Part shown: in pieces, positions 1 to 64,000 of the stretch | Layout: every line of letters begins with the position of its first letter | Position numbering within the stretch: the first letter of the stretch is position 1 | Origin: Deinococcales bacterium | GTDB lineage: Bacteria; Deinococcota; Deinococci; Deinococcales; JAAFIG01 | Direction: 5' to 3' | Assembly (NCBI GenBank): GCA_043778225.1 | Contig: JAYWGM010000094.1 | Coordinates: 64,001-128,000, forward strand | Length of the DNA stretch: 64,000 nt | The notes under the pieces: model-generated | Databases searched by the model: none | What the model was told of the DNA's origin: nothing | The model's input: the letters and a program-made list of their open reading frames with translations, nothing else | Translations under genes and position numbers: made by a program

Positions 1-586
1 CGGCTTCAAAACGCGGAGCGCTGGTGTGAATCTCGAGGGTGGATTCAAGCGGCAGCCCATCCAAGTATTTTTCGGGGTTTTCGCCACGATGGGCAGCACT
101 GACTCGAGCATGGGCAATATCCAAAAGCAGTGGCGCTTGGCTGATTTCTAGAGCGGCTGTAATCCAAGCTGGGTCAGAAATAAAAAGCGGGCGCTCTGAC
201 CAAGCGTACTGCGCCACATTCTCGAGCGCGATTTCTAAGCCAGTTGCCTCGCGCAGCACTTCTATATTTTCGGCTAACCGCTCGAGTGCAGCCCCGGGGG
301 TCAGGTTGTCCATGTCTTCGGGCTGAAAATCCAAATGAACCGATAAGTACGGCGTGTTGCTGGTGGCAATCCAATTTTTTAGGCGCTCGAGTTTTGGTGG
401 TGCTGCCATGCCAACTCGCCAATGGTCGCCGCAACCATGCAGCAAGACTGGGCGCAAACCACGAGCGCTCTCGAGTTGGGTGTCCATGTTGCGCTCGAGG
501 GCAACTTTGACGTAATCCAAGGGTGGATTGATTTTTCGCAATAAGCTACGAAGGGCGCTTGAATCATTGGCAGCGAGGGCAATCAT
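1..586 (-). CDS. DUF692 / multinuclear non-heme iron-dependent oxidative enzyme (MNIO) family protein, 3' end beyond window
   Basis: Not in the ORF track; translated by hand from ATG at 586 (RBS GGAGAA): MIALAANDSS...PVLLHG...YLSVHL...IALENVAQY...LLLDIAHARVSA...YLDGLPLESTLEIHTSAP. The H, LEN, LDxxH and LPL..EIH motifs are typical of DUF692. Open to the window edge. Confidence 0.75.
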   Translation of the reverse strand, partial: MIALAANDSSALRSLLRKINPPLDYVKVALERNMDTQLESARGLRPVLLHGCGDHWRVGMAAPPKLERLKNWIATSNTPYLSVHLDFQPEDMDNLTPGAALERLAENIEVLREATGLEIALENVAQYAWSERPLFISDPAWITAALEISQAPLLLDIAHARVSAAHRGENPEKYLDGLPLESTLEIHTSAPRFEA

Positions 587-662
587 ATTATTCTCCGTTA
601 CTACTTTGAGTTATTTACACACTATACTCTTTTGAGTAAGATGCGTGAGAAGCAGTCTGGTG

Positions 663-727
663 TTGACAATTTTTTACCTCAGTGCTACCTTATAAAAACA
701 AACATAATTTAGTGAATTAAGAAACTT
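663..727 (+). promoter_or_regulatory. sigma70-like promoter with probable ROK operator for the sugar operon
   Basis: TTGACA (663-668), 17 nt spacer, TACCTT (686-691); an AT-rich imperfect dyad (AATTTAGTGAATTAAGAAACTT) precedes the ROK start. Confidence 0.5.
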
Positions 728-739
728 ATTGGGGTATCT

Positions 740-1918
740 GTGCGAACAAACAAAGGTGACCAAAGCACTGTCCGTCGGCTTAACCGTCGGCTAATTCTCA
801 ATCATATTCGGCAAGCTGGGCAGACCAGTCGTGCCAGCCTTGCTCAGATTACAGGGCTGAGTCCAGCCGCCGTAACGGGCGTGACCGCCGAGTTAATTTC
901 CGATCAATTCTTGCTAGAACGCACCCTTGGCGAATCCAGTGGTGGTCGTCCGCCAATTCTTTTAGATATAGATTACACGGCTCATTATGCCATTGGTATG
1001 AAACTGATGGAAACCCGTCTCGAGGCGGTACTGACCGACCTTTCAACCAAGGTTCTCGAGCATCTGAGTTTACCGCTCGAGTCGCATTCACCACTTGGCG
1101 TAGCCGATTTAATCGCCAAAGCCAGCCAGCAATTATTGGTTTTGGCGGGGGTCAGTAAAGAGCGTTTAATTGGTCTGGGGCTTGGTTTAGCGGGTGTGGT
1201 GGATGCCAGCAGTGGTATTTGTCATTCATCAGCATACTTGGGTTGGCAAGAAGTGCCGATTGCCGATTTGATTCGTCAGCGTTTAGGGGTTGCTGTTTGG
1301 GTGGACAACGATGTCAATGCTTTTGCGGCGGCCGAGCGCTTATTTGGACATGGTAAAAGCGCTCAGAATTTTTTGGTGGTCACTTTAGGGCGTGGCATCG
1401 GTGCGGGTTTGGTCTTGGGTGGCGAGTTATACCGTGGGCGCGATGGTGGGGCTGGAGAACTCGGGCATACGTTAAGCGAACTCAATGGGCGAGGTTGTGA
1501 ATGCGGTAATTTTGGTTGTCTGGAAGCCTATGCTTCCGAACCTGCCTTGGTGATGCGTTACAATGAACAATGCCCCGACGCACCATTGGCAGATATTGCT
1601 GCCTTCTTAGCTTGCCAAGATGAATTAGCCACCGAACTTTTGCTGGATGCCGCCAAGCGGGTTGGGCGAGCGCTGGCGCAGTTGGTCAATATCCTTAATC
1701 CAGAAATGATCATGATTGGGGGCGAGGGAGTACGTTTGGGCGAAGTTTTTTTTGACCAAATGAAAACCACTCTGCTCGAGCATAGCTTTAATGGGCTGGC
1801 AAAAAATCTACCAATACAAATAGACGCTTGGGGCGATGATGCTTGGGCGCGTGGAGCAGCCAGTTTAGCCCTACAACGGGCTTTTGATTTTGCTTCGATG
1901 AAGGACAGCTATGTATGA
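740..1918 (+). CDS. ROK family transcriptional repressor
   Basis: N-terminal HTH (SRASLAQITGLSPAAV), GGRPP, DNDVNA, GxGIGAG and GELGH...CxCGNxGCLE motifs. Confidence 0.95.
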   Translation: MRTNKGDQSTVRRLNRRLILNHIRQAGQTSRASLAQITGLSPAAVTGVTAELISDQFLLERTLGESSGGRPPILLDIDYTAHYAIGMKLMETRLEAVLTDLSTKVLEHLSLPLESHSPLGVADLIAKASQQLLVLAGVSKERLIGLGLGLAGVVDASSGICHSSAYLGWQEVPIADLIRQRLGVAVWVDNDVNAFAAAERLFGHGKSAQNFLVVTLGRGIGAGLVLGGELYRGRDGGAGELGHTLSELNGRGCECGNFGCLEAYASEPALVMRYNEQCPDAPLADIAAFLACQDELATELLLDAAKRVGRALAQLVNILNPEMIMIGGEGVRLGEVFFDQMKTTLLEHSFNGLAKNLPIQIDAWGDDAWARGAASLALQRAFDFASMKDSYV

Positions 1919-62153: not shown

Positions 62154-62558
62154 ATGGTCATCAGCACCGATAACAATTTACTCGATACCAACACGATTTT
62201 TAAGCTGCTCGAGCATTCGTATTGGGCAAATCAGCGTTCTCGAGCCACAATTTTGAAAAGTTTAGCGCACTCCCTTAATTTTGGTGTCTACCAAGACCAA
62301 CAAATGATTGGCTTTGCGCGGGTCGTGACCGATTATGCAGTTTTTGCTTATCTGTGCGATGTTGCGGTTCTCGAGGCATACCAAGGGCAAGGCGTTGGTA
62401 AAGCCTTAATGCACGCCATTCTCGAGCATCCAGAACTTCAAGGAATTCGGCGTTTTATGCTTGCCACCAAGGATGCCCATGCTTTATACGCTCAGTTTGG
62501 TTTTAGCGCCCTGACAGCCCCAGAAAAGTTTATGGAACGTTTTGACTCGAGCGCCTAG
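62154..62558 (+). CDS. GNAT family N-acetyltransferase
   Basis: SYWA, IGFARVVTDY..FAYLCDV.V...YQGQGVGK.L, LAT.DAH.LY.QFGF. Confidence 0.92.
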   Translation: MVISTDNNLLDTNTIFKLLEHSYWANQRSRATILKSLAHSLNFGVYQDQQMIGFARVVTDYAVFAYLCDVAVLEAYQGQGVGKALMHAILEHPELQGIRRFMLATKDAHALYAQFGFSALTAPEKFMERFDSSA

Positions 62559-62587
62559 GGTCTTAACTAAGGTACGATAACCAAATT

Positions 62588-63511
62588 GTGAAACGCCTCG
62601 TTTATTTGCCAATTTTGCTGCTGTGTGTTGCCCTCGCCCAATCAGAATTTTTATTGCTTGACCACCATCAAAAAGGGGTCAATGCAATTGCCTTTTCGCC
62701 CGATGGTCAAACCCTTGTGACCGGCAGCGACGACAGCACTGCTCGAGTCTGGAAGGTGGCTAATGGCGAAATTTTGATGAAACTGAGCGGACATACGGGC
62801 TGGGTCTTGGGCGCAGCTATCAATGGCAATGGGATTGTTGCCACCACCGATTCCGAAGGGCGGGTAGCGCTCTGGGATGTGACCAATAAAAAATTGCTGC
62901 GAGTCTGGAGCGCTCACCGTGCTTGGATTCGCTCGGTAGCATTTTCCGACGATGGCACAAAACTGGTGACTGCCTCGGACGACTTTAGCGCTAAAATCTG
63001 GGAAGTCTCGAGTGGCAAACTTTTACGCACCCTAAACGGACACAAAGGCTGGCTGACCAGTGTCTTGTTGGTTCAAAACCAAGTTGTGACCGCCAGCCAA
63101 GATGGCACAGTCCGGTTTTGGAACGCGGTCAGTGGCACAAACACCCGCACCCTCGAGTTGGGCGAATGGATTTATAACTTGGCGCTCTCGCCCGACGGCA
63201 CACGCTTTGCGACCGCCGCCAAAAACGGCATTAGAATCTGGAATCGAATCAGTGGCAGACAACTCGAGCAAGTTGGCACAGATAAAATCACTTGGTCGGT
63301 CGCCTTTAGCCCAGATGGCAAAGAATTAGCGATAGGCAACGACAACGGCAGCATTGACCTCTGGGATGCCAAGGGACAAAACAAAAAACGCACCTTGACG
63401 GCACACACCAGTTATATCAAAGCCCTGACTTACTCGCCCGACAGCAGCAAACTTGCCTCTGCCAGCCGCGACGGGATGGCGCGAATCTGGAATATGGCGG
63501 CTGAGAAATAG
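62588..63511 (+). CDS. secreted WD40-repeat protein (single 7-bladed propeller)
   Basis: Signal peptide and seven WD40 repeats. Confidence 0.92.
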   Translation: MKRLVYLPILLLCVALAQSEFLLLDHHQKGVNAIAFSPDGQTLVTGSDDSTARVWKVANGEILMKLSGHTGWVLGAAINGNGIVATTDSEGRVALWDVTNKKLLRVWSAHRAWIRSVAFSDDGTKLVTASDDFSAKIWEVSSGKLLRTLNGHKGWLTSVLLVQNQVVTASQDGTVRFWNAVSGTNTRTLELGEWIYNLALSPDGTRFATAAKNGIRIWNRISGRQLEQVGTDKITWSVAFSPDGKELAIGNDNGSIDLWDAKGQNKKRTLTAHTSYIKALTYSPDSSKLASASRDGMARIWNMAAEK

Positions 63512-63538
63512 AAGTTTCTCGAGTATTTGATTTATCAA

Positions 63539-64000
63539 CTACTGCTCGAGACTTGGTTCATAACAAGCAAGGATATTGCCCGAGCCTTGCCATGTACGTG
63601 TGCCGAGTAGCTTGAGCGATACTGGTGGGCGACCAACAAATAAGGGTGTGCCTTCACCTGCAATCAGTGGGAAAATGGTGAGGTGTAGTTCGTCTACCAG
63701 ACCATGAAGCAGCAAATTATTCCAGAGCAGACGACCCATAAAGATAAGGATGTCCTTGCCGTTCTGCTCTTTGAGCGCTGCAATTTCCTTGGGCGCATCG
63801 GCTAATTTGATGATGCGAGTGTTATCCCAAGGGGCAAGTTCGGCTTGGCTTATTTTGTCCGAAATAACAATTTTCTCAATCTTGGTCTGAAGTTGGGCTA
63901 TCTCGAGCCTGATGGCAGTTGCAAGCGGGTCTTTTGGTACATTCAGCCAGTAATCTCTGTTGCCTAAAAATGATGTGCGCCCACTTAGCAGCAGGGTGTC
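63539..64000 (-). CDS. dihydrofolate reductase / RibD C-terminal domain protein, 5' end beyond window
   Basis: Open frame to the window edge: LLSGRTSF...EKIVISD...[15 protein letters not shown]...[22 protein letters not shown]. Confidence 0.88.

What the first reader, a model, noticed from the sequence alone, without database searches (positions are those of the whole stretch)
1..64000. CTCGAG behaves as a highly iterated palindrome (HIP-like) throughout the window
Seen: about 10 copies in 1-1100 and about 11 in 48000-49200. The by-eye total is in the low hundreds, against about 16 expected for a 6-mer in 64 kb at 50% GC. It is read in all three frames (Leu-Glu, Ser-Ser/Arg, Ala/Thr/Ser-Arg) and also lies in intergenic DNA (e.g. 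~9530, ~47742, 51285), so amino-acid demand alone does not explain it. Established: palindromic restriction-type sites are usually avoided; the classic exception is cyanobacterial HIP1, which is linked to methyltransferases and has unresolved function. I recall a similar CTCGAG excess in Meiothermus but cannot verify it here. Inference: a methylation/repair-driven, recombination or chromosome-organising motif.
Basis: partly seen in the sequence, partly recalled or inferred. Interest (0 to 1): 0.7.

Follow-up and report, generated by a model that had tools for sequence, protein, structure and literature searches.

The report
Hyper-abundant CTCGAG palindrome in Deinococcales
The six-letter palindrome CTCGAG occurs about every 160 bases throughout this uncultured Deinococcales genome and its whole family, inside and between genes and even at the cost of changed protein sequences, so it is a denser counterpart, in another phylum, of the unexplained cyanobacterial HIP1 repeat.

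Summary
Observation confirmed and stronger than stated. The window has 386 CTCGAG against about 8 expected. The genome has 24,877, one per 162 bp.

- **DNA-level:** density is equal in coding and non-coding DNA. All three frames are 8-14x above synonymous shuffles. Flanks are near-random.
- **Proteome cost:** Leu-Glu is 2.3x over-represented. About a third of sites in rpoB and uvrA needed replacements that no outgroup shows.
- **Distribution:** all 19 genomes of family f1 carry it. New here: the trait is graded across the order. Named Meiothermus and Calidithermus have 2.3-3.4/kb, Thermus about 1/kb, Deinococcus lacus 26 sites in all.
- **Methylation:** a published methylome survey lists CTCGAG as m6A-methylated, with no cognate restriction enzyme listed, in M. 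ruber, C. chliarophilus and Marinithermus. Neither enzyme lineage I probed, nor any other methyltransferase group, is conserved in f1. MutH, Vsr and AddAB-type genes are not conserved either.

Best reading: a per-site directional force at equilibrium (odds raised 36-99x in every context), agent unknown. This scan has found the same thing before on other DNA (at least 16 genomes). I found no published report.

The parts
1..64000 (.). Whole window: 386 CTCGAG sites (6.03/kb) spread over ordinary chromosomal genes (sugar uptake, chemotaxis cluster, histidine kinases, peptidases)
32..1081 (.).
48182..49163 (.).
9530..9535 (.). Non-coding site just after the ORF 8390-9523
47742..47747 (.). Non-coding site between the ORFs 46913-47734 and 47764-49140
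51285..51290 (.). Non-coding site between the ORFs 50290-51270 and 51369-51884
25274..39557 (+). Chemotaxis and kinase gene block used for six-species codon alignments. 44-57% of this genome's sites here are at the same aligned position in five congeners, against 15-27% identity for hexamers in general

Best explanation
CTCGAG is a genuine highly iterated palindrome. It is held at a balance between mutation, a directional force and purifying selection. The force acts on DNA, site by site, everywhere in resident DNA. It raises the odds that any position able to carry the word does carry it by about 36-99 fold. It is strong enough to override codon choice and weakly constrained amino acids, and it is held back only by strong constraint such as tRNA genes and rpoB. 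I think the force is most likely a gene-conversion-type drive, meaning biased resolution of heteroduplex or repair in favour of the strand that carries the site. It would be exerted by a vertically inherited protein that recognises CTCGAG with graded affinity. I think m6A methylation of the site in relatives accompanies site richness rather than causing it. SHOWN: the excess, its DNA-level nature, its uniform strength across contexts, its family-wide and order-graded distribution, the amino-acid replacements, the positional conservation, and the lack of a conserved methyltransferase, MutH, Vsr or AddAB. INFERRED: drive rather than selection, the existence and nature of the recognising protein, and the secondary role of methylation.
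For: (1) DNA-level and position-independent. Density is 6.18/kb coding against 6.11/kb non-coding. It is flat at 6-7/kb across gene starts and stops. Flanks are near-random. All 107 contigs have 4.0-10.6/kb. Spacing CV is 0.998 and the variance/mean of 1-kb counts is 1.01. (2) One parameter fits all contexts. The log odds ratio is 4.60 at Leu-Glu, 3.90 at [SPTA]-Arg-[VADEG], 3.58 at X-Ser-[SR] and 4.34 in non-coding DNA. (3) It overrides protein sequence. Leu-Glu is 19,116 against 8,235 expected, while Glu-Leu, Leu-Asp and Ile-Glu are at expectation. Ser-Ser is 1.58x. In rpoB plus uvrA, 39 of 90 motif columns in f1, and 10 of this genome's 31 sites, lie where none of 11-12 outgroups has a compatible peptide. 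(4) Constraint resists it. tRNA genes hold 6 sites against 32.6 expected, and rpoB has 2.3-3.8/kb. (5) It acts on resident DNA over time. Density rises from 0.71/kb in genes under 36% GC to 7.64/kb. About 20 motif-free islands of 1.5-5.6 kb are mostly AT-rich. (6) No saturation or even spacing at 6 sites/kb, as expected for a local per-site process rather than a per-fragment or per-kb one. (7) Two unrelated CTCGAG m6A enzyme lineages (27% identical) serve different CTCGAG-rich relatives. Trueperaceae MAGs show the excess, and neither probe found an orthologue in the three f2 genomes searched, if f2 is Trueperaceae (my inference). This suggests richness precedes any particular enzyme. (8) No methyltransferase orthologous group is in more than 3 of 6 f1 genomes. 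G010 has no C5 enzyme. The single-contig G013 has no N4/N6 beta-class enzyme and no type II gamma-class enzyme.
Against: No candidate protein was found, and no bacterial precedent of this strength for sequence-specific conversion is known to me. One-mismatch words are not depleted, as they would be if they were substrates of a converter. Five of nine classes are 1.8-2.3x enriched. This fits graded recognition, but it fits selection for binding equally well. Sites are positionally conserved: 921 of 1,554 are shared with G003, against 27% for any hexamer. Codons are more conserved inside the motif than outside, and the Leu-Glu 2x2 odds ratio is 4.5. Xu et al. read the same pattern in HIP1 as selection (passages seen). 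All three CTCGAG-rich Deinococcota with published methylomes methylate the site, so methylation may be essential. Non-orthologous replacement of the enzyme demonstrably occurs in this order, which weakens my 'no conserved gene' argument. Methyltransferase specificity cannot be read from sequence, and the f1 genomes are 57-94% complete. The log odds ratios assume equilibrium.
Confidence: 0.38

Rival explanations
1. Methylation-centred HIP, as in Elhai's model for cyanobacteria. An orphan methyltransferase (here m6A at CTCGAG, possibly a different non-orthologous enzyme in each lineage) marks the site. A methyl-directed repair step then preferentially keeps mutations that create marked sites, or selection favours dense hemimethylation marks.
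For: CTCGAG is m6A-methylated at 94.1-99.5% of sites, with no cognate restriction enzyme listed, in Marinithermus hydrothermalis, C. chliarophilus and M. ruber (PMC4752239, S3 table). These lineages carry an intermediate excess that survives controls. The Calidithermus enzyme has a 50-58% identical orthologue in G030; G030's CTCGAG and GAGCTC counts equal those of M. taiwanensis. Two unrelated enzyme lineages do the same job, so replacement is possible. This genome alone has more than 20 methyltransferase genes. Deviations are commonest at the outer positions, as for HIP1 (PMC4390886 abstract and section 3.4). Elhai notes HIP1-rich genomes without the enzyme.
Against: No methyltransferase group is shared by more than 3 of 6 f1 genomes. 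Neither characterised CTCGAG lineage has an orthologue in 19 f1 genomes: one 30% full-length homologue in G009, otherwise matches limited to the catalytic region (about 85-190 residues). The single-contig G013 has only one foreign-looking C5 enzyme, three HsdM, one type ISP and two D12. MutH-like genes are in 2 of 18 other f1 genomes and Vsr in 0 of 18. Density is 6x the roughly 1/kb saturation that model predicts. CCTCGAGG is 3-5x depleted in f1 but not in Meiothermus/Calidithermus, a weak hint that f1 sites are exposed to restriction.
Confidence: 0.27
2. Direct selection for a DNA-level function of the sites themselves. They would form an array of binding sites for an abundant chromosomal protein, serving nucleoid compaction or organisation, or a 'self' mark that spares resident DNA from a nuclease or defence system.
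For: Sites and their codons are conserved beyond background in all frames. One-off words show a graded, affinity-like profile. Foreign-looking DNA lacks the word. The trait is stable across a family whose GC3 runs from 0.40 to 0.85. Xu et al. argue for selection and a chromosomal role for HIP1 (PMC5861425, passages seen).
Against: I found no even spacing, no saturation, no periodicity up to 40 kb on 27 contigs of at least 60 kb, no clusters and no positional preference. With about 25,000 interchangeable sites, the benefit of each must be minute, yet sites displace residues in RpoB and UvrA. AddAB/RecB-type nuclease domains, needed for a Chi-like reading, were not found in this genome, G009, G010 or G013, and are in 11 of 18 other f1 genomes. 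No candidate binding protein is known.
Confidence: 0.24
3. An uptake-signal-type drive. The competence machinery would prefer DNA carrying CTCGAG, so recombination after natural transformation spreads the word, as proposed for USS and DUS.
For: The ComEC channel is present in 30 of 31 genomes of the order, including 17 of 18 other f1 genomes. Family-wide motif conservation, proteome distortion and enriched one-off variants also characterise USS and DUS (recalled, not checked in a paper here).
Against: ComEC is equally present in Thermus and Deinococcus, which lack the excess. The word is a short palindrome at 6/kb with independent, Poisson-like placement. A per-fragment advantage should saturate near one site per fragment. 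There is no excess of paired sites after genes. Uptake specificity has not been reported in this phylum (recalled).
Confidence: 0.07
4. A by-product of codon or amino-acid usage, of a dispersed repeat family, or of assembly.
For: In GC3-rich relatives, CTC and GAG are preferred codons, which explains part of the moderate counts there. CTC|GAG is the commonest placement.
Against: Density is equal in non-coding DNA. All frames are 8-14x over synonymous shuffles. CTC is only 9% of Leu codons and GAG 23% of Glu codons outside the motif. Flanks are random. The trait is in 19 f1 genomes, including a single-contig one, and in 16 further MAG loci from separate records.
Confidence: 0.01

Closest known systems
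HIP1 (GCGATCGC) of cyanobacteria
   Same: A palindrome with extreme excess in all frames and in non-coding DNA. It is lineage-wide. Sites and their constituent codons are more conserved than controls. Deviations are commonest at the outer positions. The cause is unresolved (PMC4390886, abstract and section 3.4; PMC5861425, passages).
   Different: Six letters rather than eight. About 6/kb rather than about 1/kb. A different phylum. The methylation known in relatives is m6A, not m5C. No conserved orphan methyltransferase was found in the family. No kb-scale periodicity was detected, though power is limited.
Alternate HIPs of cyanobacteria (GGCGCC, GCCGGC, GCsGC; GGGATCCC)
   Same: Short GC-rich palindromes that replace HIP1 in single lineages. 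Each is tied to a methyltransferase of matching specificity.
   Different: Those occur sporadically in single strains. CTCGAG is fixed in a whole family, graded over an order, and much denser.
CTCGAG m6A methyltransferases with no cognate restriction enzyme listed in Thermaceae and Marinithermus (M.Mru1279II, M.Mch9957IV, M.Mhy14884I; Blow et al. 2016, PMC4752239, S3-S5 tables)
   Same: Same word and same order of bacteria. Their hosts carry the weaker form of the excess.
   Different: In the passages and tables I saw, the survey reports methylation, not over-representation. Neither enzyme lineage has an orthologue in f1. That these enzymes are orphans is my reading of the empty cognate-enzyme column.
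Uptake signal sequences (USS of Pasteurellaceae, DUS of Neisseriaceae)
   Same: Family-wide words kept by a drive-like process that also distorts proteins (recalled).
   Different: Those are 9-12 letters, non-palindromic, about 1/kb, and often occur as inverted pairs in terminators. None of this holds here.
Vsr very-short-patch repair enriching CCWGG in E. coli (recalled)
   Same: The only well-known case of a repair enzyme biasing word frequencies towards a methylase site.
   Different: That effect is under 2-fold and depletes the T-containing one-off word. Here Vsr was found in 0 of 19 f1 genomes, and CTTGAG/CTCAAG is 1.8x enriched.

Membership tests
Highly iterated palindrome (HIP, as defined for HIP1) | Palindromic word far above Markov and codon-aware expectation | tested here: met
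   24,877 sites against 325-6,981 expected under the various models. 22,417 sites in genes against 2,396 after synonymous shuffling.
Highly iterated palindrome (HIP, as defined for HIP1) | Enriched in all three reading frames and in non-coding DNA | tested here: met
   Frames are 7.9x, 11.5x and 14.2x. Non-coding density is 6.11/kb against 6.18/kb coding.
Highly iterated palindrome (HIP, as defined for HIP1) | Shared by a whole lineage | tested here: met
   19 of 19 f1 genomes have 4.3-6.8/kb. 15 of 15 MAG loci with RpoB at least 80% identical have 3.3-6.2/kb.
Highly iterated palindrome (HIP, as defined for HIP1) | Sites and constituent codons more conserved between genomes than controls | tested here: met
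   59% of sites shared against 27% for any hexamer. Codon conservation inside against outside the motif: CTC 0.73/0.30, GAG 0.79/0.41, CGA 0.63/0.37, TCG 0.81/0.49.
Highly iterated palindrome (HIP, as defined for HIP1) | Cognate, conserved orphan methyltransferase present | tested here: inconclusive
   Present in cultured relatives. No conserved group in f1. Isospecific non-orthologous enzymes cannot be excluded from sequence.
Highly iterated palindrome (HIP, as defined for HIP1) | Periodic distribution on a scale of tens of kb (Xu et al. 2018) | tested here: not met
   Autocorrelation of 1-kb counts is positive only at lags of 1-2 kb, with no periodic signal up to 40 kb on 27 contigs (2.3 Mb). 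Contigs are at most 154 kb, so power is limited.
Uptake signal sequence (USS/DUS) | Oriented, non-palindromic word of 9-12 letters at about 1/kb, often as inverted pairs behind genes | tested here: not met
   Strict hexamer palindrome with random flanks at 6/kb, and a flat profile at gene ends.
Uptake signal sequence (USS/DUS) | Preferential uptake of DNA carrying the word | not testable with these tools
   Needs uptake assays. ComEC is present in 30 of 31 genomes.
Chi-like recombination signal | Cognate RecBCD or AddAB helicase-nuclease present | tested here: not met
   PF12705 was not found in this genome, G009, G010 or the single-contig G013; it is in 11 of 18 other f1 genomes.
Dispersed repeat element (REP/MITE) | Copies share flanking sequence beyond the core | tested here: not met
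   Base frequencies at positions -10 to -4 and +4 to +10 from the motif are 0.21-0.28.
Methyl-directed mismatch repair mark (Dam/MutH type) | MutH-type nickase plus a conserved methyltransferase, with site clusters at the origin | tested here: not met
   MutH is in 2 of 18 other f1 genomes. There are no super-clusters: the densest 500-bp windows hold 10-13 sites, within Poisson expectation. The origin may not be assembled.

The most novel reading that the evidence does not exclude
The CTCGAG excess is produced by a methylation-independent, sequence-specific gene-conversion drive. In effect a 'selfish hexamer', it has rewritten about 3.7% of the bases and more than 10,000 dipeptides of every genome in a bacterial family. 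It runs at lower strength in cultured Meiothermus, Calidithermus and Trueperaceae and has been reversed into extreme avoidance in Deinococcus. The m6A methyltransferases with no listed restriction partner in relatives were recruited afterwards, at least twice independently, to protect or exploit the site-rich genome. If so, this order offers a graded and partly culturable series in which the cause of highly iterated palindromes can at last be separated from methylation.
Probability: 0.3. Interest if true: 0.9.

Novelty: new variant of a known kind. Interest (0 to 1): 0.8.

Why it matters
Highly iterated palindromes have been an open puzzle for about 30 years and were known only from cyanobacteria. 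Here the same kind of phenomenon appears in another phylum. It is six times denser and strong enough to change residues in RNA polymerase and UvrA. Cultured Meiothermus and Calidithermus carry a weaker form, and published methylomes show the site is m6A-methylated there. The family with the strongest form lacks those enzymes, and sister Deinococcus avoids the word almost completely. That gradient turns a descriptive oddity into a testable system: knock-outs, mutation-accumulation lines and heteroduplex-repair assays in cultured relatives, and long-read methylomes of the uncultured family. It also matters in practice. The word distorts codon and dipeptide statistics, it marks imported DNA by its absence, and it makes XhoI-type sites useless or lethal for cloning in these organisms.

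Tried and rejected
- **Maximal-order Markov expectation.** This gave O/E of only 1.16 because the 5-mers are dominated by the motif itself. I rejected it as circular.
- **The TaqI-like enzyme L016 (HTH + Eco57I + TaqI_C) as the cause.** It is in only 2 of 12 other f1 genomes searched, and one copy has an internal stop. 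It is 38% GC. A 264-aa ORF of no Pfam family overlaps it, and that ORF's nearest language-model clusters look restriction-enzyme-like. I read it as an accessory R-M pair.
- **The weak PF07669 hit on contig C8 and its Calidithermus homologue.** Both are MmeI-family type IIG enzymes, which recognise asymmetric sites. Not relevant.
- **DUF6094 'methyltransferase' hits in G010 and G011.** They have no counterpart in this genome.
- **XhoI endonuclease family (PF04555).** No hit in this genome, but the control rang in none of 14 genomes, so this is uninformative.
- **Vsr-type conversion.** Rejected: no gene and no depletion of one-off words.
- **Chi-like role.** Rejected for lack of AddAB/RecB domains in several f1 genomes.
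- **Positional signals.** Origin-type clusters, promoter or terminator association, and kb-scale periodicity were not seen.
- **Spacing-7 pairs as a repeat family.** They have unrelated flanks.
- **Short multi-copy stretches in the window as tRNAs or known RNAs.** No.
- **Literature.** CTCGAG + 'highly iterated palindrome' gave 0 papers. CTCGAG + Meiothermus gave 2; from titles and abstracts they are enzyme-cloning papers, and I did not read them. CTCGAG + over-represented + palindrome + genome gave 0. HIP1 + palindrome + Deinococcus gave 1, a cyanobacterial repair review seen as a listing only. CTCGAG + Deinococcales gave 0.
- **Not attempted.** Sequencing-run and read-laying tools, structure prediction and complex prediction. 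None would separate the rival explanations.

Full report
**Observation.** The window holds 386 CTCGAG sites. One hundred dinucleotide-preserving shuffles gave a mean of 8.36 and a maximum of 18. The window is G000:C94:64001-128000 of a 4.03-Mb, 107-contig genome with 48.7% GC. Genome-wide there are 24,877 sites, one per 162 bp. CTCGAG is the commonest hexamer by 2.9-fold, and the next eight most frequent hexamers are all words that overlap it. Markov orders 0-3 expect 931, 524, 1,651 and 6,981. An order-1 model with the motif masked expects 325, which gives 76x.

**Anatomy.** The unit is strictly the hexamer. Flanking bases are near-random, except that CCTCGAGG is scarce (243 against 812 expected). 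All 107 contigs have 4.0-10.6 sites/kb. Spacing is Poisson-like at short range: CV 0.998, and variance/mean of 1-kb counts 1.01. At 2-20 kb there is mild over-dispersion (variance/mean 1.2-1.7), with autocorrelation only at 1-2 kb and no periodicity up to 40 kb. I used an ORF proxy for genes (3,538 ORFs). Coding DNA has 6.18 sites/kb and the remainder 6.11/kb. The profile across gene starts and ends is flat.

**Gene-aware controls.** The three frames hold 13,227 (CTC|GAG), 4,519 (nCT|CGA|G) and 4,671 (nnC|TCG|AGn) sites. After within-gene synonymous shuffling they hold 1,675, 393 and 328. In the other two frames the excess still stands at 1.65x and 2.07x. Outside the motif, CTC is 9% of Leu codons and GAG 23% of Glu codons. 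Even so, 69% of Leu-Glu dipeptides are written CTCGAG.

**Effect on proteins.** Leu-Glu is the most over-represented dipeptide, at 19,116 against 8,235 expected. Glu-Leu, Leu-Asp and Ile-Glu are at expectation. [SPTA]-Arg-[VADEG] is 1.29x, X-Ser-Ser 1.76x and Ser-Ser 1.58x. I built codon alignments of rpoB (16 f1 and 12 outgroup genomes) and uvrA (15 and 11). Of 90 alignment columns with the motif in at least one f1 genome, 39 lie where no outgroup has a compatible peptide. A further 21 are synonymous, 21 mixed and 9 gapped. For this genome's 31 sites the split is 10, 9, 10 and 2. Examples:
- rpoB column 255: Ile-Pro in outgroups, Leu-Glu in 11 of 16 f1 genomes.
- uvrA column 3186: Pro-Glu (CCCGAG) in outgroups, Leu-Glu (CTCGAG) in f1.
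- uvrA column 2154: Gly-Glu in outgroups, Leu-Glu in 4 f1 genomes.

Replacement sites are shared by 21% of f1 genomes on average and synonymous ones by 48%, so gain and loss continue. Constraint resists the force. tRNA genes hold 6 sites against 32.6 expected, and rpoB has about half the genome density.

**A single strength.** I compared occupancy with the chance set by motif-free codon usage. The odds are raised 99x at Leu-Glu, 49x and 36x in the other two frames, and 76x in non-coding DNA. As natural logs these are 4.6, 3.9, 3.6 and 4.3. One-mismatch words are not depleted. All three changes at position 1/6 are 2.2-2.3x, CCCGAG is 2.0x and CTTGAG 1.8x. Inner transversions are 0.5-1.0x. This is a graded, recognition-like profile.

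**Resident against imported DNA.** About 20 motif-free stretches of 1.5-5.6 kb are mostly AT-rich (31-47% GC), and several overlap methyltransferase loci. Density climbs from 0.71/kb in genes under 36% GC to 7.64/kb in the most GC-rich genes. Only 20 of 1,709 genes of at least 900 nt lack a site.

**Distribution.** All 18 other genomes of family f1 (5 genera, GC3 from 0.40 to 0.85) have 4.3-6.8 sites/kb. The reversed word GAGCTC is rare in them, at 0-568 copies. An RpoB scan of species-representative genomes returned 15 'Deinococcales bacterium' MAG loci at 80% identity or more. All have 3.3-6.2/kb. One further locus at 73% identity has 6.2/kb.

The trait is graded across the order. Whole-genome counts are:

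| Genome | CTCGAG sites | Size | Reversed-word control |
|---|---|---|---|
| C. chliarophilus | 16,086 | 4.7 Mb | 4,391 |
| M. granaticius | 9,836 | 3.3 Mb | 1,497 |
| M. taiwanensis | 7,001 | 3.0 Mb | 1,323 |
| Thermus parvatiensis | 1,982 | 2.0 Mb | 2,170 |
| Deinococcus lacus | 26 | 2.6 Mb | 138 |

I then analysed about 240 kb of Meiothermus and Calidithermus DNA around rpoB. There the excess survives synonymous shuffling in each frame (2.3x, 8.7x, 3.6x). It also holds in non-coding DNA, with 67 sites against about 10 expected. Trueperaceae MAGs look similar, and Deinococcus shows nothing. These are rpoB neighbourhoods with proxy gene calls, so the frame figures are approximate.

**Conservation.** There are 237 reciprocal-best gene pairs with congener G003 (231,885 aligned nt, 76.9% identity). 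In them, 921 of 1,554 sites (59%) are at the same aligned position, against 27% identity for hexamers at large. This holds in every frame. Constituent codons are much more conserved inside the motif than outside. Where Leu-Glu is conserved, presence of the motif in the two species is correlated (odds ratio 4.5). Leu-Glu unique to one species is still 66% and 41% motif-encoded. Five congeners over the window's chemotaxis block gave 44-57% sharing.

**Search for the agent: gene families.** This genome has at least 20 DNA methyltransferase genes and avoids many other 6-bp palindromes. I took every C5, N4/N6, N6 gamma-class and D12 hit from five well-assembled f1 genomes of four genera and clustered them with this genome's own.
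- No group is present in more than 3 of the 6 genomes.
- G010 has no C5 enzyme.
- The single-contig G013 has no N4/N6 beta-class enzyme and no type II gamma-class enzyme.
- MutH-like genes are in 2 of 18 other f1 genomes and Vsr in 0 of 18.
- AddAB/RecB nuclease domains are in 11 of 18, and in none of G000, G009, G010 or G013.
- ComEC is in 30 of 31 genomes of the order.

**Search for the agent: published methylomes.** The methylome survey of Blow et al. (PMC4752239; I saw the S3-S5 tables and text passages) lists cTcgAg as m6A. The enzymes are active and no cognate restriction enzyme is named. The organisms are Marinithermus hydrothermalis (94.6% of sites), Meiothermus (now Calidithermus) chliarophilus (94.1%) and M. 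ruber (99.5%). I located the likely genes by family and by position. One is a 553-aa Eco57I-family ORF at 817-819 kb of the C. chliarophilus scaffold, flanked by a GGDEF gene and an anti-sigma factor. The other is a 447-aa Eco57I/TaqI_C ORF at 33.9-35.3 kb of G025. That G025 is Marinithermus is my inference. The two proteins are only 27% identical. The first has a 50-58% identical orthologue in G030, which has the same counts as M. taiwanensis. The second has 53-55% identical orthologues in the two g9 genomes. In the 19 f1 genomes there is one 30% full-length homologue (G009); every other match is confined to part of the catalytic region. CCTCGAGG is depleted to 0.18-0.30 of expectation in f1, but it is at 1.0 in Meiothermus and Calidithermus.

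**Interpretation.** The excess is a DNA-level, per-site, genome-wide directional force in balance with mutation and purifying selection. Its uniform strength across contexts is what a local gene-conversion-type drive predicts. So are the independent placement without saturation, the gradual loading of imported DNA, and the penetration of conserved proteins. I rank that first, at 0.38. The same data are formally compatible with selection on each site. The agent is unknown, and one-off words are enriched rather than consumed. In all three relatives with published methylomes the site is methylated. Non-orthologous replacement of the enzyme has happened in this order, so a methylation-centred mechanism stays a serious rival (0.27). 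Selection for a binding-site array is the other serious rival (0.24). Uptake-signal drive (0.07) and compositional by-product (0.01) are unlikely.

**Novelty.** I found no paper reporting a CTCGAG excess in Deinococcota. The two HIP papers do not contain the word or the taxon. In the methylome survey's main text the word appears only in connection with Nocardia. The supplements of the two HIP papers were not consulted. Earlier notes of this scan describe the same phenomenon in at least 16 genomes, including another piece of this one.

Noticed in passing
whole genome (G000): Many other 6-bp palindromes are almost absent: GGCGCC 3, GACGTC 1, AGGCCT 1, GGGCCC 1, CTTAAG 8, GTGCAC 9, TGCGCA 11, GAGCTC 24. 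The genome also carries at least 20 DNA methyltransferase genes. This indicates a very heavy restriction-modification load, as in cyanobacteria.
   Followed up: partly
whole genome; 5 copies in the window: The 8-mer CCTCGAGG is specifically depleted in f1: 243 against 812 expected here, 12 against 67 in G003, and 12 against 40 in other f1 MAG loci. It is not depleted in Meiothermus/Calidithermus (135 against 134). This suggests an 8-cutter restriction pressure, and perhaps that CTCGAG is unprotected in f1.
   Followed up: partly
whole genome: CTCGAG-N-CTCGAG (spacing 7) occurs 123 times, against 30-50 for neighbouring spacings. The central base can be any of the four, flanks are unrelated, and 103 of the 123 are in ORFs. 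Unexplained.
   Followed up: partly
window 37190-37330, 38058-38128, 41385-41560: Short dispersed repeats that are not tRNAs or Rfam families. The roughly 140-bp one gives 49 BLAST hits in this genome (including itself) at a median 92% identity, with many copies at contig ends in congeners. None of the three window segments contains CTCGAG.
   Followed up: partly
G000:C44:57429-63066, C41:55252-59552, C40:7693-11073, C70:76689-79170 and about 16 more: Motif-free stretches of 1.5-5.6 kb, mostly AT-rich (31-47% GC): probable recent imports. C40 holds broken methyltransferase genes.
   Followed up: no
G071 (Deinococcus lacus) and f3 genomes: Named Deinococcus loci have the RpoB closest to f1 among the named outgroups (73% identity). 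Deinococcus shows the opposite extreme: 26 CTCGAG in 2.6 Mb, and 0-1 sites in rpoB and uvrA despite 7-9 Leu-Glu each. That is a roughly 600-fold contrast in density.
   Followed up: partly
G003:C4:28861-30789 (L034): The congener's copy of the TaqI-like methyltransferase L016 carries an internal TAA stop, so it is probably decaying.
   Followed up: no
G000 tRNA genes: Six CTCGAG sites lie inside predicted tRNA genes. ARAGORN predicts 68 tRNA genes, a high number for a 4-Mb genome. I did not check which tRNAs carry the sites or whether the sites fall in stems.
   Followed up: no
G000:C8:5053-9921 (L282): An MmeI-family type IIG enzyme, cut by the contig end, lies beside an SRAP (SOS-response peptidase) gene and a weak Y-family polymerase-like ORF.
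   Followed up: no
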